Positions 4,787 through 62,588 of a stretch of DNA of 64,000 bases are shown one piece after another. Both the position numbers and the translations under genes were made by a program. The stretch comes from Cyanidioschyzon merolae (lineage: Eukaryota), in NCBI GenBank assembly GCA_000091205.1, contig AP006493.2. The stretch is one strand, 5' to 3'. The notes beneath the pieces are model-generated. The model saw only the letters and a list, made by a program, of their open reading frames with translations. It made no database searches and had not been told where the DNA came from. The number at the start of each line of letters is the position of its first letter. The first letter of the stretch is position 1.

Positions 4787-7700
4787 CGCACGAGTGTCAG
4801 ATCCAGTAGCTGCTTGCGTCGAGCGCTACCCAGCACGTTTGCAATAGACGCTGTTGTCGAGCGTTCGACAGCGTCGCCGCGGCTCGACGCTGCTGCAAGA
4901 CTCGAAGGACTCGCTTACCCAGAGCAGTGAACACTGAACCCCTGTGTACCAGCACAGTCTTTTGGTTCTCCTTCGTTGTTCTCGCAGGTACTCAATAACA
5001 GTTATGGGTTGCGTACCTGGGAGAGACCGGCCGCGCGATGCGTTTTTGACGACAATGCTGGCATGCGAGCATGCAGCTGGACTTGTTGTACGGTCAGCAG
5101 GAGGATACATGACCCTGTGTTTCGTCCTTATCCTGAACGTGGTGCACTGTCAGTGGAACTTGTAAATTCTCTATGTACTTGACTGTCTCATCGTCAATCC
5201 ATTCTGCTCGATACGGTCTCTGAGAAATTCGAAGAAAGCAGCCATAGGATATGAAGTTTCCGTACCTTTCATCTGAGCTGTGATGAAGCGACACAACTAG
5301 CCAAAGAAACAAATGCGATTCTATAGGAACATGTCGCTCGTTGAATAACGGATAATTGATGTCGTACTGAAACAGCAACGCTGATTCCAGTGGGTATGGA
5401 TGCTCGTCGCACCCGATGAGACTTTCTTCAGGAAATATGGTAGGGATGGATACGCGCTCCCAAACAAGAGCAAAACGCTGTCCTCAGAGAAGAGCACAGT
5501 GTGCATTCCGACCACACCAGTATCAGCCGCGATGCAATCGTGTCGTCACTTAGAAATCCCGAAACGAACAGGATCGCTCAAAAGCTCATCCTTCATCGAC
5601 GCAGGTCGTGACTTCTGTTTCCGTTCCTCTTGCCTTCTCTTCGTCGGAATCGCTTTTCTTCGCTCATTAGCGGTCAAAGAGTAGGCAGCCTCGAGAGGCG
5701 TCACTTTGCTCGTTGCCCCAGCATATTCCGTCCAGTTTAATCCCGTCGGAGGTGTCTTCGCTATTGTTAGATGCCACGGCTACGCTTGCGTACGCAATAG
5801 ATGACTCGTGCGCATACGTGAAAACGTCCGTCAACCAATGGTTCTCCAGCTTCACCAGCAGCGAAATACTGTGCTGCAGTCCGGCGTTTGCGTCGGAGCG
5901 AGGCGAAAGACCGCGCTCCTTTCTATGGGCGTGCTCGCGACACAAAAGGTGAACGAAGAGGAACTCGTGGCTTAGTCGACACGTACGTACTCTACGAAGG
6001 CGGACTTTTTTCCTACTGATTATCCAGTGCGTCTGAGTCGCGAGGCAGCAAATGGATACAGAGTACAGCGCTCGCATCCACGTCATCCCGCCATGTGAAT
6101 GTGAGCTGAAACAGCACCGGACGAAGTTGAGGCGATCCTCCCGAAAATGGGATGAGAAAGGACGGCAAGGGAAAACATTCGGAGCGGAAGCAACAATCTC
6201 ATACATTTATCCAGGCCACTTTATAAGAACACATCAACATGGAGAATCTTCCACAAAGTGTGGTTCAGGACGCCATCACGCATCGTGTAGCCTGTTGCTC
6301 CAGGAACGCTCGCACAGCTTCTCCAGTCTTGACGTATCTCGTCATGCAACTGTTTGGACGAGCTCCGGTCGCAGGGATGCCAGGTGTCAACATTCCTCTG
6401 GAATTTCTCGTTCAAATCTTCATACGAAAACTGATACTGGGCACAGAGGATGCAAAACGACCAGATCGTAGGATCAGGGATTCGTATAGATTCACTTACC
6501 AGAATACCTCGACGTTTCGCCGTGTCATCTCAGCAACTGAAATATGGTACACAGTTCAGGTGCCCAGAAGTATCAACCCAATCTCAAGGATCAAAACGAC
6601 ATGCGAGTCAATGTAGTGCGCTTCATGAAACGCACAATGCAGCGATGGTTTCCGTCGTACCCTCATTACATTCACCCAGAAAAGTCGGGACAAACCGAAG
6701 GCGCTGTCCAGCGGTGTGATAGAAGCAAATAGCAGACTGGTGATGGCGGAAGCGATCGATATGGTAGGGAAAGTCGCTTGAGATCGTCCAAGCTCATGGT
6801 GTCACCTCTGACTGCGAGTCGGCGAAGGTTGCCTCTAAATAACGAATGAAACGTGATGCCTCTCTTCCGTGCATCTCTCGCTACAACTCTTTTCTGGACG
6901 GAGCCCGCGAACCCGAAGCGAATTCCCTACCCCAAGTCGGGCGCTCTGGACTCCTCAGACACCTATACGACGTGATGCGCATGCCCTACATCATGAGGCA
7001 TCACATCACTGCAGACACTTTTGTGGAATACTGTACGATCTTTATTGTGAGCTGCGGCTGATCTAAGCATGAAACTAGGAAGCACTCACAAAAAGTTCGC
7101 ATGGAGCATAAGCGATACGATTTCAGTGTTTCTCGTTTCCAGGCACGATGCGGAAAAAGGTTTCCGGACAAGATGAAGCGCTGCGCACTAGCCATTTTCA
7201 TTCACTTTTCTGAAACTCGAGCCTGACCCCAGCAACAGAACTCGCTTTCAACCGATCCGGGGAGAGGAAGAGAAAGAATTCGTGGTAGGTATAGATCCGG
7301 GGGTTTCGGGTGGTCGTACGCGTTGCCCCAGGCCCGACATCACAGGCACGGCGCCAAAGACCTGAACAGAAAACAGATGAACCCCCTCAACTTTTCCAGG
7401 GCTCGGTATCATCCCACATCGGGCGTGACAGACGCCAATTTGCATACGTTCAAGTGGAATGACGGTGTCGGGAACCGTCTCGATGTTCTGCGCCCCGTAC
7501 CGATCGGAAGCAGATGTTATGTGCGCTTTCTTCGGAGCGTCGATGATCGTCCCAGAGGCTCACACGGACGCTCTCTGGCAGGAGCACATGAAACGCGCGG
7601 GGATCGTCGCCTGTTTCTGTCGCATGAATGCAAGCAGCCTGCAATCTCTAACTTGTCCAATGCATTGGAAAAAGGAAATGCCCCATAACTCGCGTCGGTT

Positions 7701-8640
7701 GATAGAAGCTTCCAGCGCTGGACTTGCTGGAATGTGCAGGGATTCCACACCCGATCCCTTGACGAGAGCGCAGAACAAGTGCAGGAATTGATGCTGCTCG
7801 ACTCCCATCGTTCGATTCATTGGGATGTATACGCAACACGGGCACAGCTGCAAAATGAAGCAGCATAGGAGAGCGCAAACAGATCTGGATGCTTCAAATG
7901 GCATCCGATAAGCTGATCGAGTCTCAGCTGGCGAGGCGGTAGACGGCAAGCCGCTCGCTACAGTATGCTTGGACGAGCAAGTGTCCACCCGAGCACTTTC
8001 CGCACCGGGCATTGAACACCTCGATCAACACCAGGACGTGTCTTGCTCGTCTGTAATGTGAACGGGTTTGTGCTGAACTGCACTCCAAGGTAATCAATTT
8101 TATCTCTCTATGCACGTATTGTGCGGAGACGCTACTGACTTTCGATTCAAAAATCAGTGCCATGCGAGAAAGAGCACTGGGTTCTCGTTTCGAGCACGCC
8201 ACCGGTACGGCACATTCCAGGATTTCAGCAAGCCTGGAACGCTGCACGCAAAAATGACGTGAACGATTTTGCCCGGTAATTGGAGAACAAAAATGGTGTT
8301 CCACCATTCGATATTACAAAGCATACTGGTGCAGTGGGTTGCGCTATCGATGCACCCTTTCGATGATGAGTGGGTTCCAGCGGGTCAGTTCGTCCGCGAT
8401 GCCGCCACGTAGCGCTCCTATGCAAGGGGTGCGAATGCTCCTGCGTACCCGCGGGCGCCAGATGACGGGCAGACAGGCAAAGTGACCGACCGATTGTCCG
8501 TCCGTCCCGCTGAATGGCTGAACGCGTGACTGTCCGTCCATCTGCCTGTTTGTCTTTTTCATGTTAGGATTGATAGCGCCAGCATCGGGGCGGCAACGTT
8601 GAGGTTTCGGGATCATCATGCACACACAGGGTGATAAACT

Positions 8641-9500
8641 TTACGCAGCCCCACTCTGGAGCGCTTTCATGCCAGCAGCCTCGGATATCTGCTCGTACGT
8701 CGGTACACCATACATCTCTCCGTACAGAACCACGGTCGGGCGTGAGCGCAACATCCTCGTTGCTACGCGGAAAATGTCCTTCTCTGTGACTTTTTCGATC
8801 GCAGCGTACAAAGTAGCTGGTTCTATGTACTGGCCCGCGGTGAGAATTTGCCGTCCGAGGTCCTCGCACACCACGGTGTTACTCTCGAGATTCATAAAAA
8901 CTGAAGCTTTGGTTTGATTCTTGGCTCGCACCAGTTCCGCACGCGTGACCTGCCCCATCTTGGCAATCTCTTCACAGATGATTTCCGCCAACTCCGGCAG
9001 GCGGCCAGACTCCGCACTCGCGTGGATCCCAAACAGACCCGAATCGGTATAGCAGTGATTGAAACCAGTGCATGACTGCACCCAGGGATGCCGATTCAGG
9101 ATACCCGTATAAAGTCGCGAGTACATGCCCTTACCAGGTCCGCCAGCTGAAAAGGACCCGCCGCCTCCCAAGAGGGTGTTCAGCACCGCCACCGGAATGA
9201 GGTCGGGATCCGACCACGAGACCGCCTCACAGGCAACGGCGATCTGGGCAAGTCCGTCGCCGTCAAGGCGCGCTTCACCCCCAGTGTAATGCGACGCCAT
9301 ATCCACCACGGCCTTGTCCGCGGGTGGACGTGGCAACCAGCCCAGGGCTCTCTCGGCAACGCGCAGCAGCTGCTCGTGGCCAATACCGACCGCTGCAACC
9401 ACAATATTGCCTGGATTCTGTAATCGCTCGCTGAGAAAACGTTTGACAACTTCTGGAGTCAATTTCTTTCGCCTTTTTTCGTTCATGAAAAGCGGTAGGC
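8641..9500 (-). CDS. Mitochondrial processing peptidase alpha-subunit-like, exon 2 (C-terminal M16 inactive domain).
   Basis: Peptidase_M16_C-type sequence with a Gly-rich loop (LLGGGGSFSAGGPGKGMYSRLY), characteristic of MPP-alpha/core-protein subunits. Stop at 8643-8641. Confidence 0.7.
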
Positions 9501-9871
9501 CTAGATAATGTCAAAAGATTGGTTAGTATCACGTTCTTGTTTCACGTAACGAAATGTGGGTGCGCTCCGACACAGTCAGAGCCTCGCGACCTTCGAAAAG
9601 GGTTCCACTCTGCCTGCTCTAGCGCGCATCCGATGGATTCTCCGTGAGCTGGCCGGCTCGATATCATCGAGCGACCACGAGGCGACACAGCACGTGCCGG
9701 CCGGTGGCAGCCGACTCACGCTTCTCATCCGAGCGAGAAGCAACATCTTATTCTCCGAAGCGGTACCAGCGGTGCAGGTGGCAAATGCGTGAAAGAAACG
9801 CACACCCCACCGCACTCTCTATGCCGAAGTTGCTTCGGTTGCCACCAGCGAAAATAAATTTCACAACTTAC
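9501..9871 (-). other. Spliceosomal intron (371 nt, not a multiple of 3) in the MPP-alpha-like gene.
   Basis: On the minus strand the donor is CTAG|GTAAGT (plus-strand acttac at 9866-9871). The branch point is TACTAAC (plus-strand ggttagta at ~9519-9527), about 30 nt upstream of a pyrimidine-rich tract ending in the tCTAG| acceptor at 9501-9502. Splicing joins the two halves of an M16 peptidase in frame (…NTLG|GLPLFMNEK…). Without it the gene is interrupted by TGA at 9863-9861. Confidence 0.6.
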
Positions 9872-10658
9872 CTAGTGTGTTGCCCTGATAGGCAGTCGCG
9901 TGGAGCGCTTCCACCAATTGTAATTGCGTGTCCTTGCCCATCGCGTGTTCCTGTTCGTATTCGATCACTTTGAGCGCGTCCTGCAACTCCGCTCGGATGC
10001 CATCATCGAGGGCGGCGGAAACCTCCCCGTACGCCATGAGCTGCGGACGCACTGCCGCCTCACAGACAAGGTTTATGAGCTCAGGAGCGGCGTCTCGTAA
10101 GCACTCCCCAGTAAAAGCAATAGACTCGCGTGCCGCTGCACAGCCAACAGAACCTCCGGTGCGTTCAATATCCTGCGCAAGTCGAAAACGGGAGCGCTCG
10201 AGCGTTGCCGAACGGAACGCCAGTGTCTCTAGTGCGTGCGTACTCCCAGCGGTGAAAAGATCCTCGTACCGAGATCCAGCATTAAAATAAACGCCGAACG
10301 ACGTCACCAGATCGTTTGCCGAGTGCGCCTTGGGCGAGGCGTTCACAGGCGTCACCACCCGCACGCCATTGTCCAGGAACGACACGCGACATCCGCTGGG
10401 TCGTGGAGTTGCTGTGGCGGCCTCGGGTGCCGGCACACCGGCCAGAGGGCTCGACAAAGGTACCTCAAACCCAAACCAGCCTTGCAACTTGCGCCAAACC
10501 CATGGCGGGCGCCCGCTCTCTGCCCCGCTTTCGCTACTCGGGGAGGTCGCTTTGAGCGTGGAGAAGCGGGCCCCGCGCAGACTTGCAGCAATGGAGTTGC
10601 GCAACCGACCCGACGGCCAGGCCGCTTCTGCGATCCCGCGAGATGCAAAGCTTAACAT
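9872..10658 (-). CDS. Mitochondrial processing peptidase alpha-subunit-like (inactive M16 peptidase), exon 1. The longest ORF runs to 10670 but begins with TTG; the first ATG is at 10658.
   Basis: Motifs LDNGVRV, AGSRYE and HALETLAFRSAT (HxxEx rather than HxxEH) with the GG..C..ARE..A.TGE spacing typical of MPP-alpha. The exon ends ...YQGNTLG immediately followed by GTAAGT. Confidence 0.7.
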
Positions 10659-10849
10659 AACCAAGCGCAAAGGTTACTACACGCACCCTCGTTCAGCACT
10701 CGAGGGGTACTTGCTTTTCGAACGCGCCGCTTCTGTAACGCGCTACGAACGCGGCTGCTCAAGCGCGGTGTATCGCCCAGTGCGGCGGCATCGAAGGGCG
10801 CCTCAGCGGCGTCATCGGCTACTGGAATGGTGAGCACATCACAGGGTCT

Positions 10850-13000: not shown

Positions 13001-13618
13001 CTAGCGCTTCTCGAACTCCTGTCGTAAGACTTCGCTCTCCCGAGCCGCCTCGCGCGCCTCTTCCTTCAGCACTTTCGACTCCTTCTCTAATATTTCGTCC
13101 TCCTTCTTTTTATACTCTGGCTCACGTTCCACACGAGGGGTCCGGTACACTTCCTTCTCAGCAGGGTCCGGGTTTTCGTAGAGCTCCTCCTCGTACTTCA
13201 GGCCGCTGACGTACTTGTCGAGCTCCTTCTCGTCATCAATTTTCGGAGCTTCTTCTCCTTTGTCCGTAGGCTTCTCACGTATCTTTGCGATGCTTGGGGA
13301 CGTGCCTGGAATGACCGTCGCGAGCAGGCCTCCCAAAATGATGTGCGCCCCTGCACGGAGTAGCGAACGGCGGTCTGGATCCGGTACCCTAACTTGCATA
13401 CGAATAGGACACTTTGAGCCATTCCAGTGTTTAGGTGCACTCTTCACAATAGCTCCATGACTTACAAACATGATGTTACGTTCTCGCAGATAAAAAACGT
13501 GCAGGTTCCAGGCCCGTGTCCCACGCGAGTCCCCAAGGGTACAAGTGGATCTCGCGACGGCGTGCGCATCGCCCTCGCGCGCTCGCGGATCCACGCGCAG
13601 CGCCTCCGCGAAGGCCAT
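13001..13618 (-). CDS. Possible small hypothetical protein (205 aa) with one predicted transmembrane helix and a Lys/Glu-rich C-terminal tail.
   Basis: ATG-initiated ORF. Hydrophobic segment AHIILGGLLATVIPG followed by a highly charged tail (KIDDEKELDKYVSGLKYEEELYENPDPAEKEVY...). No homologue recognised, so it could be spurious. Confidence 0.25.
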   Translation of the reverse strand: MAFAEALRVDPRAREGDAHAVARSTCTLGDSRGTRAWNLHVFYLRERNIMFVSHGAIVKSAPKHWNGSKCPIRMQVRVPDPDRRSLLRAGAHIILGGLLATVIPGTSPSIAKIREKPTDKGEEAPKIDDEKELDKYVSGLKYEEELYENPDPAEKEVYRTPRVEREPEYKKKEDEILEKESKVLKEEAREAARESEVLRQEFEKR

Positions 13619-34755: not shown

Positions 34756-34864
34756 TAAGCGTCGTTATACCGGTGAACACACCAAGGTGTTCTGGAACTC
34801 GCAGATGTCGCGAGAGAGGCACACCTGGCGTGTGCTCAGCGTAGGCGCTGCTGGCCCGCCTCGT

Positions 34865-36699
34865 ATCCCAATGTGGGATCAGCAGCGGTACGAATGCTGA
34901 ATGCTGCGGGTGTTGTTCGACGGACAGTTTCTGGCTATCGAAAGCGTTGACGCTTTTAAGGGCTACTGTTCCGCTGTCCCGCCTCGTATCCCAATGTGGG
35001 ATCAGCAGCGGTACGAATGCTGAATGCTGCGGGTGTTGTTCGACGGACAGTTTCTGGCTATCGAAAGCGTTGACGCTTTCAAGGGCTACTGTTCCGCTGT
35101 CCCGCCTCGTATCCCAATGTGGGATCAGCAGCGGTACGAATGCTGAATGCTGCGGGTGTTGTTCGACGGACAGTTTCTGGCTATCGAAAGCGTTGACGCT
35201 TTCAAGGGCTACTGTTCCGCTGTCCCGCCTCGTATCCCAATGTGGGATCAGCAGCGGTACGAATGCTGAATGCTGCGGGTGTTGTTCGACGGACAGTTTC
35301 TGGCTATCGAAAGCGTTGACGCTTTTAAGGGCTACTGTTCCGCTGTCCCGCCTCGTATCCCAATGTGGGATCAGCAGCGGTACGAATGCCGAATGCTGCG
35401 GGTGTTGTTCGACGGACAGTTTCTGGCTATCGAAAGCGTTGACGCTTTCAAGGGCTACTGTTCCGCTGTCCCGCCTCGTATCCCAATGTGGGATCAGCAG
35501 CGGTACGAATGCCGAATGCTGCGGGTGTTGTTCGACGGACAGTTTCTGGCTATCGAAAGCGTTGACGCTTTCAAGGGCTACTGTTCCGCTGTCCCGCCTC
35601 GTATCCCAATGTGGGATCAGCAGCGGTACGAATGCCGAATGCTGCGGGTGTTGTTCGACGGACAGTTTCTGGCTATCGAAAGCGTTGACGCTTTCAAGGG
35701 CTACTGTTCCGCTGTCCCGCCTCGTATCCCAATGTGGGATCAGCAGCGGTACGAATGCCGAATGCTGCGGGTGTTGTTCGACGGACAGTTTCTGGCTATC
35801 GAAAGCGTTGACGCTTTCAAGGGCTACTGTTCCGCTGTCCCGCCTCGTATCCCAATGTGGGATCAGCAGCGGTACGAATGCCGAATGCTGCGGGTGTTGT
35901 TCGACGGACAGTTTCTGGCTATCGAAAGCGTTGACGCTTTCAAGGGCTACTGTTCCGCTGTCCCGCCTCGTATCCCAATGTGGGATCAGCAGCGGTACGA
36001 ATGCTGAATGCTGCGGGTGTTGTTCGACGGACAGTTTCTGGCTATCGAAAGCGTTGACGCTTTCAAGGGCTACTGTTCCGCTGTCCCGCCTCGTATCCCA
36101 ATGTGGGATCAGCAGCGGTACGAATGCTGAATGCTGCGGGTGTTGTTCGACGGACAGTTTCTGGCTATCGAAAGCGTTGACGCTTTCAAGGGCTACTGTT
36201 CCGCTGTCCCGCCTCGTATCCCAATGTGGGATCAGCAGCGGTACGAATGCCGAATGCTGCGGGTGTTGTTCGACGGACAGTTTCTGGCTATCGAAAGCGT
36301 TGACGCTTTCAAGGGCTACTGTTCCGCTGTCCCGCCTCGTATCCCAATGTGGGATCAGCAGCGGTACGAATGCTGAATGCTGCGGGTGTTGTTCGACGGA
36401 CAGTTTCTGGCTATCGAAAGCGTTGACGCTTTCAAGGGCTACTGTTCCGCTGTCCCGCCTCGTATCCCAATGTGGGATCAGCAGCGGTACGAATGCCGAA
36501 TGCTGCGGGTGTTGTTCGACGGACAGTTTCTGGCTATCGAAAGCGTTGACGCTTTCAAGGGCTACTGTTCCGCTGTCCCGCCTCGTATCCCAATGTGGGA
36601 TCAGCAGCGGTACGAATGCTGAATGCTGCGGGTGTTGTTCGACGGACAGTTTCTGGCTATCGAAAGCGTTGACGCTTTCAAGGGCTACTGTTCCGCTGT
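34865..36699. repeat. Minisatellite: 123-bp unit in ~15 tandem copies, with two alternating SNP variants (gctgaatg/gccgaatg and ttttaag/tttcaag).
   Basis: Period 123 read directly (cccgcc starts at 34978, 35101, 35224, ...). Because 123 = 41 codons, all frames stay open, which produces the artefactual long ORFs 34947..36833, 35270..36007 and others. The array begins ~110 bp upstream of the DHQD-SDH ATG. Confidence 0.9.
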
Positions 36700-37613
36700 C
36701 CCGATCATATCAGGTGAGGACTATGATCGATACTGCGGGTTTGGAGCGCGTTTCCAGGGCCAAACAAGGGGCGTTCCGCACAAGCGGGACGAGTTGGACT
36801 TTTCTGGACGGTTGTCAAGGGCGTCGGCGTTGAGCGGTCGTACGAGTTTCTGCTTCGAGCTTGCAGAGGGAAAGCAGAATCGACATGCATATGTGACTGC
36901 GATGAGCAGATGCTTTTAGTGTTCAAAGCCGTTTGGCGAGTTGATGACGAGTTCAAGATCGTCGGTTGCAGCGTGCGCTGCTTCGTAGAGAGGAACAAGG
37001 ACACGAAAACCTCGAACTCGTTGTGGCGTGTCTGAAACCAATCGTGAAAGAAATCGCCAAGCATCGCTTCCAATGAGTAAATAATATATCGATACGAGAG
37101 GGTTCTGGTTAGCCTACGGATCGCTGTATGCTGTCTGCATGCGTGGGGCGCCTCTACAGCACCTATGAGAACGCGGCGATGCTCAGAAGCGAGTCCATGA
37201 CCTTGACATGACGCTGTGTACAGAGGACCTGAGGCTGTTCGTGAACAAGCTGCTGACTCTGGAATGCCCGTATCTCTTCAGTCTGGCGATAGATCGTTGA
37301 TCTGAACGTCCGAGTCCAAATCCTGTGTTCCAGGCACCGCAACTGGTTCAGTACCCGCAGTGCCCGCATCCCCGAGAGACATCATCGTATGTAGGACGTG
37401 GCGGGTGTCCCTGAACGCTTCTCGTTAACTAGACAACATGAGCGTTTGCGTTAGCCCCCCTACAAGAACATTTTAGCGAGTCTGGGTGGCGCCCAGAGCG
37501 CCCAGCTCGAATAATCTGCCTTTTGCGACAGCGTGGCAGCGGTGGATCCAACGCCCACTGGGTACCGGCTTCTGAAATCGCAAAACGTTTCCTCTGCGAG
37601 CGCGTTGCAATGG

Positions 37614-61679: not shown

Positions 61680-62588
61680 TCACAGAAACTTGTCCCGTGC
61701 CGTCGGTGAGTAGACTCCCCCAGGTGCTGGTCTCGAGAGCGAGGTCTCTCGAAATTTCCCACGCTGACGTTTCCAATACGAAGGGCTCAAAAACGCGAGC
61801 GTCCACCAGAACTGCAAGGCCACCACTACGACAAAGGAGACCTTGGTGGACCAGGCGGCAGCTGGATGCGGGAGCACCTTATAAAATAGGATATAGGGGT
61901 ACCAAACGATGCGTATGCCGAGCCAGCTGGCATAAAAAAGAACCTCAAACACCCAACCGCCTCGAATGTTTCGGCGCAGTAGGAGAAACAGCGTATTCAA
62001 TTCAACAATAAGGATATCCGCGGTTATGGCGGTAAAAGCTAGCGCCAAGGACGCCAGATCCCCGATCTCGAAGCAGCGCGTGGTCACGCGTCGACACTCT
62101 CCAACAAGGTTGGCCAGTCGCAGAAGAGCCGTTGTCGGCTGCATGAGCAACACCATCGCCACAAGGTGATGCACCAGAATGGCCCACGGTTGTTTCACGA
62201 TGTAGGGCGCAAACAGAATCCACATTGTGTCGCTCAAAAAGTACAAGTCAGCGTAGACCACGAGCGTTGCATGCACCCACACACGGTCCGTAATCATGCT
62301 CGCAACAGATAACAGGAAAAGCATGGGGATTTGTGCCATGTTCACATAGTCGTGGATGCGCGCACCCAGCCCAGGCCGCCACACCTCTCGGGTCGCTATT
62401 CGATCCCCGGAGCCAGGTTCGGACGTAGCGTCGGCCCCGTCAGAAGTGATGCCTCTCAACCCCACCATACGAACATTCTCACTGTTCCTGGACTTGTCCA
62501 TGGTTCGCACGCTGTCTCCGGTATACAACGGAGACCTGCGCGTACGCCTCTTCGGTGCTTTTATCGCTGCCGTGCGGAGCGCGCGCAT
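61680..62588 (-). CDS. TLC (TRAM/LAG1/CLN8)-domain-like polytopic membrane protein. The ORF is open to 62687 with TTG; the first ATG is at 62588.
   Basis: Five to six hydrophobic helices (MAQIPMLFLLSVASMI..., ...WAILVHHLVAMVLLM..., ...FVVVVALQFWWTLAFL). The HH motif sits in a helix as in TLC proteins, but no Lag1 catalytic motif is present. Assignment is tentative. Confidence 0.45.
   Translation of the reverse strand: MRALRTAAIKAPKRRTRRSPLYTGDSVRTMDKSRNSENVRMVGLRGITSDGADATSEPGSGDRIATREVWRPGLGARIHDYVNMAQIPMLFLLSVASMITDRVWVHATLVVYADLYFLSDTMWILFAPYIVKQPWAILVHHLVAMVLLMQPTTALLRLANLVGECRRVTTRCFEIGDLASLALAFTAITADILIVELNTLFLLLRRNIRGGWVFEVLFYASWLGIRIVWYPYILFYKVLPHPAAAWSTKVSFVVVVALQFWWTLAFLSPSYWKRQRGKFRETSLSRPAPGGVYSPTARDKFL

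What the first reader, a model, noticed from the sequence alone, without database searches (positions are those of the whole stretch)
8641..10670. MPP-alpha gene split by a rare spliceosomal intron with yeast-like consensus signals
The two halves of an M16 inactive-peptidase (MPP-alpha-like) gene lie in different frames, 371 nt apart. The gap starts with AG|GTAAGT and contains TACTAAC ~30 nt before a CTAG| acceptor. Splicing restores a continuous M16 protein (…AYQGNTLG|GLPLFMNEK…). Every other gene in the window is a single ORF. This is therefore one of the presumably rare introns of an intron-poor genome, and it shows the strict donor/branch consensus typical of such genomes. An ORF-only annotation would call two fragments or a pseudogene.
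Basis: partly seen in the sequence, partly recalled or inferred. Interest (0 to 1): 0.5.

Follow-up and report, generated by a model that had tools for sequence, protein, structure and literature searches.

The report
Known red-alga intron hosting H/ACA snoRNA
This is the already annotated single intron of the mitochondrial processing peptidase alpha gene of the red alga Cyanidioschyzon merolae; its interior encodes a conserved RNA of about 290 nt that has the hallmarks of a box H/ACA snoRNA guiding the universally conserved pseudouridine in ribosomal helix 69, which would explain why this rare intron was kept.

Summary
On the minus strand, exon 1 (10658-9872) and exon 2 (9500-8641) are separated by a 371-nt GTAAGT...TACTAAC...TAG intron. 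The spliced 548-aa product is letter-for-letter GenBank BAM80606.1, "probable mitochondrial processing peptidase alpha subunit" of Cyanidioschyzon merolae 10D, chromosome 11. Two RNA-seq contigs join 9872 to 9500 exactly. So the intron is real, but already annotated. Its signals are the published consensus for this genome, which has 39 introns.

Intron nt 34-320 (window 9838-9552) are conserved in three related Cyanidiales. They fold with 25 compensatory base pairs into hairpin, AGAAUA, a variable three-way-junction domain, hairpin, ACA. Both guide pockets sit 14 nt upstream of their box. In all four species the first pocket pairs (11-14 bp) around one uridine of LSU helix 69, the equivalent of yeast Psi2260 / E. 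coli Psi1917. This is best read as an intron-encoded box H/ACA snoRNA, the functional counterpart of yeast snR191, which lies in the NOG2 intron.

By locus-tag position the gene is almost certainly CMK260C. A December 2025 preprint reports its stable intronic RNA ("K260 sieRNA") as part of an unclassified new class. The H/ACA reading is inferred, not shown biochemically.

The parts
9872..10658 (-). Exon 1 of the MPP-alpha gene (ATG at 10658; ends in the first base of a Gly codon, phase 1)
   Evidence: the spliced product equals BAM80606.1 exactly; transcript contigs L008/L009 cover it.
9501..9871 (-). Spliceosomal intron, 371 nt, GT-AG, phase 1
   Evidence: It is absent from RNA-seq contigs L008/L009. 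The same codon and phase are interrupted in L001, L003, L004 and in Galdieria L007 3808-3856.
9866..9871 (-). 5' splice site GTAAGT
   Evidence: identical in L001, L003 and L004; matches the published Cyanidiales consensus GUAAGU.
9522..9528 (-). Branch-site TACTAAC (intron nt 344-350)
   Evidence: L001 has TACTAAC and L003 has CACTAAC at the equivalent place. The published consensus is ACUAACC.
9501..9503 (-). 3' splice site TAG
   Evidence: the junction is confirmed by transcripts.
8641..9500 (-). Exon 2 of the MPP-alpha gene, including the TAA stop at 8641-8643
9552..9838 (-). Predicted intron-encoded box H/ACA snoRNA, about 287 nt (intron nt 34-320); probably the 'K260 sieRNA' of Geertz et al. 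2025
   Evidence: Conserved blocks in four species. In the consensus fold 86% of cells are paired against 36-41% in slid controls; 25 pairs have compensatory change against 3-7; 0 of 500 shuffles reach this. Intron identity is 66%/56% against about 50% for the 3' flank. The ends are predicted, not mapped.
9755..9838 (-). 5' guide hairpin: lower stem CCGAAGC/GCUUCGG; pocket strands ...AGAGAGU (9820-9814) and UGGUACC (9768-9762); upper stem closed by GCG/CGC
   Evidence: In all four species the pocket pairs with LSU helix 69, GUAACUA[U G]ACUCUCU (11-14 bp; the next-best rRNA site has 6-7). Shuffled guides reach this in 0-50 of 1000 trials.
9749..9754 (-). H box AGAAUA (ANANNA), starting 14 nt after the base of the upper stem
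   Evidence: It is AGAAUA in L001 and AGAGCA in L004; L003 has AGAUCG, which deviates at position 6.
9632..9748 (-). Hinge plus variable middle domain: a small hairpin and a three-way junction, with no box after it
   Evidence: Helices 5-9 covary. It matches the 'three-helix junction' reported for K260 by DMS-MaP.
9558..9631 (-). 3' guide hairpin: lower stem GG.UGCG/CGCA.CC; pocket strands CGCUAGA (9624-9618) and GUCGGAG (9571-9565); upper stem GCAGGCAGAG/CUCUGACUGU
   Evidence: Candidate targets are LSU GAAUCCGAC[U G]UCUAAUU (equivalent to yeast Psi2133) or ..CGAC[U A]UCUAGCG (equivalent to yeast U2347).
9555..9557 (-). ACA box, starting 14 nt after the base of the 3' upper stem; invariant in the window, L001 and L003

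Best explanation
The window is Cyanidioschyzon merolae 10D chromosome 11. The feature is the single, already annotated GT-AG intron of the nuclear gene for the mitochondrial processing peptidase alpha subunit (BAM80606.1; by tag order most likely CMK260C). It is removed by the reduced, U1-less spliceosome of this alga using the strict GUAAGU / UACUAAC / AG signals; this step is shown. The intron is not empty. Nucleotides 34-320 encode a box H/ACA snoRNA with two guide hairpins separated by a lineage-specific three-way-junction insertion. The inferred mechanism is as follows. After splicing and debranching, exonucleases trim the linear intron down to the RNA protected by the Cbf5/Nop10/Nhp2/Gar1 proteins. 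The 5' hairpin then pairs with 25S/28S rRNA on both sides of one uridine in the loop of helix 69 (equivalent to yeast U2260 / E. coli U1917) and directs its conversion to pseudouridine. The 3' hairpin guides a second site in LSU domain IV, most likely the equivalent of yeast Psi2133 in helix 65. Because the snoRNA has no promoter of its own and depends on splicing of the host transcript, the intron has been retained while about 2000 others were lost.
For: Identity and splicing. The spliced product is an exact match to BAM80606.1, and 12 neighbouring single-ORF proteins match C. merolae 10D exactly. RNA-seq contigs L008 and L009 carry the exact junction. The intron sits at the same codon and phase in three Cyanidiales relatives and in Galdieria.

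Conserved structured RNA. Sequence blocks are invariant across four species. The RNAalifold structure, computed before any target was considered, has 86 pairs, 25 of them with compensatory changes. Pair counts are 86.3% paired against 36-41% when partners are slid, and 25 against 3-7 compensatory pairs, with 0 of 500 shuffles reaching the observed values. Several pairs are G-U, so the RNA is on the gene's strand. The intron is far better conserved than the 3' flank. It is nearly invariant in 11 environmental C. merolae contigs.

H/ACA anatomy. AGAAUA immediately follows hairpin 1 and ACA immediately follows the last hairpin. In both cases the box starts exactly 14 nt after the base of the upper stem, and the spacing also works out to 14 nt when the stems of L001 and L003 are counted by hand from the folds. 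The invariant blocks coincide with the pocket strands and boxes, while the stems covary.

Target. A scan of a complete eukaryotic rDNA unit (L005) puts helix 69, GAGUAACUA[UG]ACUCUCUU, first for the 5' pocket of all four species. It gives 11-14 contiguous pairs, against 6-7 for the next site. Shuffled guides reach this in 0-50 of 1000 trials. That uridine is the equivalent of Psi2260 / E. coli Psi1917, which is guided in yeast by snR191 (PMC2794176 Table 1). snR191 is itself encoded in the NOG2 intron.

Independent experiments. Geertz et al. [quoted passage not shown] It is 200-400 nt long and has a three-helix junction. This matches the predicted size and the middle domain.
Against: No Rfam family, including SNORA74/U19 and snR191, matches the intron even at E<=10. 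The architecture is not the textbook hairpin-hinge-hairpin-tail, because a domain of about 110 nt lies between the H box and the ACA-proximal hairpin. The H box of the most distant relative (L003) is AGAUCG, not ANANNA. In the window itself the thermodynamically best upper stem of hairpin 1 (GUGC/GCAC + GGUGG/CCACC) would lengthen the pocket-to-box distance to 17 nt; the 14-nt register rests on the consensus of the four species. Only three and a half sequences support the covariation. The rRNA of C. merolae itself was not available, so targets were scored on another eukaryote's rDNA. The 3' pocket target is ambiguous. The authors of the preprint ran bioinformatic classification, found C/D snoRNAs and RNase MRP, and left this RNA unclassified. 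The equation MPP-alpha = CMK260C rests on tag order (CMK258C and CMK265C flank it), not on a printed table. No RNA ends, protein association or pseudouridine were tested here.
Confidence: 0.75

Rival explanations
1. The intron hosts a member of a genuinely new class of stable intron-encoded RNA ('sieRNA'), as proposed in the 2025 preprint. Its function would be unrelated to pseudouridylation, for example a heat-stress-linked regulatory RNA acting through its three-way junction. The H/ACA-like features would then be coincidental.
For: The preprint classifies the K260 RNA as uncharacterised after bioinformatic screening. It reports heat-induced polyadenylation with 50-200-nt tails and in-vivo protection of the junction bulge. 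There is no Rfam hit. The large middle domain has no counterpart in canonical H/ACA snoRNAs.
Against: Coincidence would have to explain several things together. An ANANNA box and an ACA box each start exactly 14 nt from a pocket in a structure predicted blind. The invariant blocks fall on the pocket strands. The best rRNA match of the 5' pocket in four species is the same, universally pseudouridylated uridine. The lack of a growth defect on intron deletion resembles snR191 deletion in yeast.
Confidence: 0.13
2. The conserved intron structure serves splicing itself, for example by bringing the 5' splice site and branch point together for a spliceosome that lacks U1. It would not yield a functional excised RNA.
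For: C. merolae lacks U1 and splices inefficiently. Intron secondary structure is known to assist splicing of long yeast introns (general knowledge).
Against: The helices do not pair the splice-site-proximal segments: the first 33 nt and last 51 nt are poorly conserved. The Galdieria intron at the same position is only 49 nt and splices without any such structure. If the tag assignment is right, a discrete stable RNA accumulates.
Confidence: 0.04
3. The RNA is an H/ACA-type RNA of another kind: a scaRNA guiding snRNA pseudouridylation, or the H/ACA-like 3' domain of a telomerase-type RNA.
For: The extra middle domain and the unusual length. The target of the 3' pocket is not settled.
Against: The strongest complementarity is to LSU rRNA helix 69. 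By eye I saw no sequence resembling a telomere template or a CAB box; no search was run. The snRNAs of this alga were not available for scanning.
Confidence: 0.05
4. There is no intron: two separate M16 half-genes, or a frameshifted pseudogene.
For: ORF-based gene callers report two proteins (P0197 and P0199).
Against: Spliced transcripts exist. The junction residues ..NTLG-LPL.. are colinear with Galdieria, Porphyridium and other alpha-MPPs. The signals are conserved in relatives. The reference annotation agrees.
Confidence: 0.01

Closest known systems
Yeast snR191 (vertebrate U19 / SNORA74), the box H/ACA snoRNA encoded in the NOG2 intron
   Same: It is intron-encoded in an intron-poor genome. 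It is a box H/ACA guide for the helix-69 loop pseudouridines, the most conserved Psi sites. It is dispensable for normal growth, as is the K260 intron. It is presumably processed by splicing, debranching and exonucleolytic trimming.
   Different: The host gene is different (MPP-alpha, not NOG2). There is no detectable sequence or covariance-model similarity. The predicted pairing fits only the U2260-equivalent register, not U2258. An extra domain with a three-way junction lies between the H box and the 3' hairpin. Orthology is therefore not claimed.
'K260 sieRNA' of Geertz et al., bioRxiv 10.1101/2025.12.01.691491
   Same: Almost certainly the same molecule. [quoted passage not shown]
   Different: The preprint treats it as part of a new, unclassified ncRNA class and does not mention H/ACA. 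Here it is assigned to the box H/ACA family with a specific rRNA target. The tag-to-gene link is inferred from the flanking tags CMK258C and CMK265C.
Annotated introns of C. merolae 10D (Matsuzaki 2004; Stark 2015; Slat et al. 2026 preprint)
   Same: [quoted passage not shown]
   Different: Nothing differs; this intron is one of that set.
Yeast snR3 (guides Psi2129, Psi2133, Psi2264)
   Same: The 3' pocket of the present RNA can pair around the equivalent of U2133 in helix 65.
   Different: The pairing is only 8-13 bp depending on species. An alternative site (the U2347 equivalent) scores as well if the alga carries a rare CGAC variant. This is unresolved.

Membership tests
Spliceosomal GT-AG intron | GU at the 5' end, a branch-site consensus upstream of a YAG 3' end | tested here: met
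   GTAAGT ... TACTAAC (22 nt from the branch A to the 3' splice site) ... TAG.
Spliceosomal GT-AG intron | Removed from mature transcripts at exactly these borders | tested here: met
   RNA-seq contigs L008 and L009 join window 9872 to 9500.
Spliceosomal GT-AG intron | Removal restores a reading frame colinear with orthologues | tested here: met
   The 548-aa product equals BAM80606.1. The junction NTLG-LPL matches Galdieria RTLGLPL and Agarophyton NTLGLPL.
Spliceosomal GT-AG intron | Position and phase shared with orthologous genes | tested here: met
   L001, L003 and L004; Galdieria partita L007 3808-3856, phase 1 in the same Gly codon.
Mitochondrial processing peptidase alpha subunit (M16B, non-catalytic) | Two M16 half-domains | tested here: met
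   PF00675 and PF05193.
Mitochondrial processing peptidase alpha subunit (M16B, non-catalytic) | Degenerate zinc motif (no HxxEH) and a Gly-rich substrate loop | tested here: met
   Read directly from the translation: HALET instead of HxxEH, and GGGGSFSAGGPGKGMYSRLY.
Mitochondrial processing peptidase alpha subunit (M16B, non-catalytic) | Closer to alpha than to beta / core subunits | tested here: met
   The top 7 PDB matches are alpha-MPP (5e-86 to 9e-66); the best beta is 5.7e-53.
Box H/ACA snoRNA | Hairpin - hinge - hairpin - tail architecture | tested here: inconclusive
   Two guide-type hairpins with the boxes in the right places, but an additional domain of about 110 nt lies between the H box and the 3' hairpin.
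Box H/ACA snoRNA | H box ANANNA in the hinge directly after the 5' hairpin | tested here: met
   AGAAUA (window, L001) and AGAGCA (L004). L003 has AGAUCG, one deviation.
Box H/ACA snoRNA | ACA box three nucleotides from the mature 3' end | tested here: inconclusive
   ACA is invariant directly after the last stem in the window, L001 and L003. The mature 3' end could not be mapped with these tools.
Box H/ACA snoRNA | Pseudouridylation pocket whose top lies 14-16 nt upstream of the H or ACA box | tested here: met
   Computed as 14 nt for both hairpins in the window. The same 14 nt is obtained for L001 and L003 by counting from the folds, not by a script. The structure was predicted before targets were sought.
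Box H/ACA snoRNA | Bipartite pocket complementarity flanking a target U in rRNA or snRNA | tested here: met
   The 5' pocket pairs with helix 69, GUAACUA[UG]ACUCUCU (11-14 bp), the top site in four species (controls). The 3' pocket has two candidate sites and is unresolved.
Box H/ACA snoRNA | Association with Cbf5/Nop10/Nhp2/Gar1 and guide-dependent Psi formation | not testable with these tools
   Needs immunoprecipitation and Psi mapping in wild type against the K260 intron-deletion strain.
snR191 / U19 (SNORA74) family | Sequence and structure homology to the family model | tested here: not met
   No Rfam match in 9400-9950 at E<=10. Only the predicted function is shared, so it is described as a functional counterpart, not a member.
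sieRNA (Geertz et al. 2025) | [quoted passage not shown] | tested here: inconclusive
   Position and size fit. Stability was not testable here. The criterion 'not assignable to a known class' is contradicted by the H/ACA features.

The most novel reading that the evidence does not exclude
The RNA could be more than a pseudouridylation guide. It may be an H/ACA scaffold that has acquired a Cyanidiales-specific three-way-junction domain with a separate function, for example the heat-stress-linked polyadenylation and protein binding reported for 'sieRNAs'. That would make it a founding member of a new functional class. A related, broader reading is that most or all of the 11 unclassified sieRNAs are unrecognised H/ACA snoRNAs. 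In that case all of the 23 (of 39) C. merolae introns reported to hold stable RNAs would host ribosome-biogenesis RNAs, which would account for why those introns were retained.
Probability: 0.15. Interest if true: 0.7.

Novelty: new member of a known kind. Interest (0 to 1): 0.45.

Why it matters
The intron itself adds nothing new; it is in GenBank and in the published C. merolae intron lists. The interest lies in its contents. A current preprint argues that C. merolae kept its 39 introns because many of them encode stable RNAs. Eleven of these, with K260 as the showcase example, are proposed to be a novel RNA class of unknown function.

If K260 is a box H/ACA snoRNA for the most conserved pseudouridine of the ribosome, at least part of that "new class" collapses into a known one. 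No H/ACA snoRNA of this alga turned up in the searched library, so this would fill that gap. The case that intron retention in extremely intron-poor genomes is driven by snoRNA hosting, as in yeast, would also become stronger.

The idea is directly testable with strains that already exist, by mapping Psi in the K260 intron-deletion strain.

Tried and rejected
Rfam with permissive thresholds on the intron and with gathering thresholds on the whole window gave no match.

Classes considered by eye on the conserved blocks and rejected:
- Box C/D snoRNA: the window has GATGA and CTGA, but neither is conserved in L001 or L003.
- RNase P/MRP: no CR-I or CR-V motifs, and the preprint assigns MRP to another intron.
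- SRP RNA.
- Telomerase RNA: no template-like sequence.
- A missing micro-exon: the protein junction is colinear with orthologues.

Attempts to obtain rRNA:
- A viral-contig scan for a eukaryotic helix-69 sequence found nothing.
It returned two LSU loci from unidentified eukaryotes and none from the Cyanidiales-rich samples. So it supplied a real rDNA for target scoring but did not settle the 3' pocket target. It also weakly argues against the U2347-type site.

Attempts to find a printed link between MPP-alpha and a CMK tag failed:
- The supplements of both preprints are not held.
- The PNAS 2015 paper is not held.
- Other papers do not list it.
- The link was instead inferred from flanking locus tags.
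- BAM80607 could not be placed.

A DSS1/SEM1 gene lies downstream of MPP-alpha in the relatives but was not found in the window. Environmental C. merolae introns were too similar to add covariation.
Full report
**1. The observation**

The gene lies on the minus strand. Reading the reverse complement, an ORF from the ATG at 10658 runs to ...GCA ACA CAC TAG|GTAAGT. The exon ends at 9872, after the first base of a Gly codon. The next 371 nt (9871-9501) begin with GTAAGT, contain TACTAAC at intron nt 344-350 and end in TAG. Exon 2 (9500-8641) continues GC CTA CCG CTT TTC ATG AAC... to a TAA stop.

Joining the exons gives 548 aa with Peptidase_M16 and Peptidase_M16_C domains. There are two slips:
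- The G at the junction is duplicated; the true sequence is ...AYQGNTLGLPLFMNEK....

Without splicing, translation stops three codons into the intron (...GKL*).

**2. Source of the sequence, and whether the intron is real**

An exact-sequence look-up shows that the spliced 548-aa protein is GenBank BAM80606.1 / XP_005536642.1, [quoted passage not shown], on an 852,849-bp chromosome. Twelve other window ORFs are exact matches to neighbouring C. merolae proteins:
- BAM80604 = CMK258C
- BAM80609 = CMK265C
- BAM80610 = CMK267C
- BAM80613 = CMK271C
- BAM80614 = CMK272C
- and others

A further ORF (61680-62588) falls in the same cluster as BAM80618 = CMK277C, whose annotated protein is shorter. The window is therefore chromosome 11 of C. 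merolae 10D, and the intron is already in the reference annotation.

The same protein cluster contains 457-aa products that read straight through the junction. Their contigs (L008 from SRR29605858, which still carries an Illumina adapter, and L009 from SRR29605850) align to the window at 99.5% identity. They cover 10739-9871 and then 9504-8519, so the 371 nt are missing and the junction is CACTAG|GCCTACC.

PDB sequence matches confirm the alpha identity: seven alpha-MPP chains score 5e-86 to 9e-66, ahead of any beta or core subunit. The protein has HALET instead of HxxEH, and it carries the alpha-type Gly-rich loop.

**3. Comparative evidence**

The closest relatives in the protein database are three gene fragments from hot-spring metagenomes (P0001, P0004, P0006). 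Their contigs are L001/L002, L003 and L004. L001 and L004 are about 55% GC and Cyanidiococcus-like. L003 is very GC-rich and Cyanidium-like. All are interrupted at the same codon:
- All three have GTAAGT. L001 and L003 also have a (U/C)ACUAAC branch site and an AG; L004 breaks off inside the intron.
- Intron lengths are 371 nt (L001) and 419 nt (L003).

Galdieria partita, the outgroup within Cyanidiophyceae, has a 49-nt intron in the same Gly codon and phase (L007 3808-3856). The intron position is therefore ancient.

Two Rader-lab preprints give the context:
- C. merolae has 39 introns, C. yangmingshanensis 40 and C. caldarium 54.
- The consensus signals are GUAAGU / ACUAACC / AG.
- 85% of introns have an early in-frame stop.

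**4.

The intron alignment is not uniformly diverged. Four blocks are nearly invariant, while the sequence between them changes freely:
- CCGAAGC..CUUCGGCA.AGAGAGUGCG
- CGCUGGU..CGCUUCGGAGAAUAAGAU
- UAGAGCAG
- GACUGUGUCG.A.CGCA.C.ACA

Overall intron identity is 66% (window against L001) and 56% (against L003). Exons score 74-76% and 67%. The 3' flank scores about 50%, which is the noise level. Eleven environmental C. merolae contigs carry the intron with at most one SNP.

RNAalifold on the three complete introns predicts 86 pairs in 12 helices, and 25 pairs keep pairing through changes on both sides. On that structure 86.3% of cells are paired, against 36-41% when the partners are slid by 1-3 columns. 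Compensatory pairs number 25 against 3-7 in the slid controls. None of 500 column shuffles reaches the observed values. There is a caveat: the structure was derived from the same three sequences. Conserved G-U pairs place the RNA on the gene's strand.

**5. Anatomy**

The fold has these parts, in intron coordinates:
- Hairpin 1, nt 34-117. A 7-bp lower stem CCGAAGC/GCUUCGG, a large internal loop, and an upper stem closed by GCG/CGC.
- The single-stranded hexamer AGAAUA, nt 118-123.
- A variable domain of a small hairpin plus a three-way junction.
- Hairpin 3, nt 241-314. Lower stem GG.UGCG/CGCA.CC, a 7+7-nt internal loop, and a 10-bp covarying upper stem.
- ACA, nt 315-317.

This is the hairpin / H box (ANANNA) / hairpin / ACA layout of box H/ACA snoRNAs, with an insertion in the hinge. 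In both guide hairpins the box starts exactly 14 nt after the base of the upper stem. The same 14 nt is obtained for L001 and L003 by counting from the folds. The established rule is 14-16 nt, and the structure was predicted before any target was considered. The invariant blocks are precisely the two strands of each internal loop plus the boxes, as expected for guide sequences, while the stems covary.

The weak points are:
- L003 has AGAUCG instead of ANANNA.
- The window's own minimum-energy upper stem would give 17 nt rather than 14.
- There is no Rfam hit.

**6. Target**

A metagenome scan yielded a complete eukaryotic rDNA unit (L005: SSU, 5.8S and LSU by Rfam). I scanned every U of it for bipartite pairing with the pocket strands.

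For the 5' pocket, the top site in all four species is LSU GAGUAACUA[U G]ACUCUCUU. It gives 4-7 bp on the 5' side and 6-7 bp on the 3' side, 11-14 bp in total. The next-best site has 6-7 bp. Composition-preserving shuffles of the guide strands reach the observed score anywhere in the rDNA in 0-50 of 1000 trials, depending on species.

This sequence is the loop of helix 69. Yeast modifications are Am2256, Psi2258, Psi2260, Psi2264 and Psi2266 (PMC2794176 Table 1). That pattern fits A-C-U-A-U-G-A-C-U-C-U uniquely, so the predicted target is the equivalent of U2260, which is E. coli Psi1917. It is one of the two pseudouridines conserved from bacteria to humans. In yeast it is guided by snR191, which is itself encoded in the NOG2 intron.

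The 3' pocket (CGCUAGA / GUCGGAG; invariant core UAGA / GUCG) has two candidate sites:
- GAAUCCGAC[U G]UCUAAUU. By alignment to my recollection of yeast 25S, this is Psi2133 in helix 65, an snR3 site. The numbering is memory-based.
- ..CGAC[U A]UCUAGCG, the equivalent of yeast U2347. This requires a rare CGAC variant.

That variant was found in only two of all JGI metagenome contigs, neither from a Cyanidiales-rich sample. I therefore favour the first site but cannot decide without the alga's own rDNA.

**7. Link to the literature**

Geertz et al. (bioRxiv 10.1101/2025.12.01.691491) report the following:
- Of these, 11 are box C/D snoRNAs, one is RNase MRP, and 11 are unclassified "sieRNAs" proposed as a new class. 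H/ACA is never mentioned.
- Their showcase is the CMK260C intron RNA. It is validated by Northern blot, is 200-400 nt long, has a three-helix junction with an in-vivo-protected bulge, and its deletion causes no growth defect.

In this window MPP-alpha is the second gene after CMK258C and lies before CMK265C. It is the only gene there with a coding-sequence intron. The predicted RNA is about 287 nt and its middle domain is a three-way junction. I therefore equate it with K260, at about 85% confidence. The tag itself was not seen in print next to the protein name.

No paper in the searched library describes an H/ACA snoRNA from this alga.

**8. Verdict**

The intron is real, spliced as described, ordinary for this genome and already annotated. 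Its interior most likely encodes a box H/ACA snoRNA directing pseudouridylation of the helix-69 loop. It would be a new member of a known family and a functional counterpart of yeast snR191. This gives a concrete reason for retaining the intron and reinterprets an RNA currently presented as a new class.

The steps that are shown:
- splicing
- conservation
- covariation
- box positions
- complementarity

The steps that are inferred:
- snoRNP assembly
- processing from the excised intron
- the actual pseudouridylation
- the second target
- the identity with K260

Confidence in the H/ACA reading is about 0.75.

Noticed in passing
window 34850-36703: A 123-bp tandem repeat, 15.1 copies at 99% identity, lies in the gap between the DHQ-SDH gene and CMK271C. 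Because 123 is a multiple of 3, it creates a spurious 628-aa ORF (34947-36833, no ATG until codon 592) and a meaningless DUF2802 Pfam hit.
   Followed up: yes
L007 3808-3856 (Galdieria partita MPP-alpha): A 49-nt intron (GTTAGC...TAG) interrupts exactly the same Gly codon in the same phase as the C. merolae intron, but it is far too short to hold an snoRNA. The intron position therefore predates the snoRNA, or Galdieria lost or moved the snoRNA.
   Followed up: partly
window 4810-8640 and L001 3395-3748 / L003 11051-11359: In both relatives a DSS1/SEM1 gene sits directly downstream of MPP-alpha. In the window the corresponding 3.8 kb has no long ORF, a slightly lower GC content (52%) and no tblastn match to DSS1. 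The region is unexplained.
   Followed up: partly
window 13001-13618 (-): A 205-aa ORF is conserved in L003 (blastn, 70% identity) and present on 23 metagenome contigs. This exact sequence is not among the NCBI C. merolae proteins. The annotated BAM80607 may use another start or be a different ORF.
   Followed up: partly
window 9838-9824 (intron nt 34-48): The 5' strand of the lower stem (CCGAAG) can alternatively pair with a CUUCGG inside the pocket, giving a CCGAAG-CAA-CUUCGG mini-hairpin. This is present in the window, L001 and L004 but not in L003. It is a possible competing or regulatory conformation of hairpin 1.
   Followed up: no
L005 (metagenome contig AP72_2010_repI_A100DRAFT_1000108) and L006: L005 is a complete rDNA unit and L006 a partial LSU, both from unidentified eukaryotes. 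They are the only JGI metagenome contigs carrying CGAC instead of CUAC just 5' of the conserved UAUCUAGCGAAACC in LSU domain IV.
   Followed up: partly
cluster of P0196; loci L010-L020: Prokaryote-style gene calling in hot-spring metagenomes splits this gene into two 'proteins' on dozens of contigs. One ends ...NTLGKL* and the other starts MNEKRRK. The intron in these environmental C. merolae populations differs from strain 10D by at most one SNP (positions 87 or 282, both in upper stems).
   Followed up: yes
L003 9640-10058: The Cyanidium-like orthologous intron is 419 nt long and appears much more GC-rich by eye. Its branch site is CACUAAC and its H-box-equivalent is AGAUCG, yet it keeps the pocket strands and the ACA box unchanged.
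   Followed up: partly
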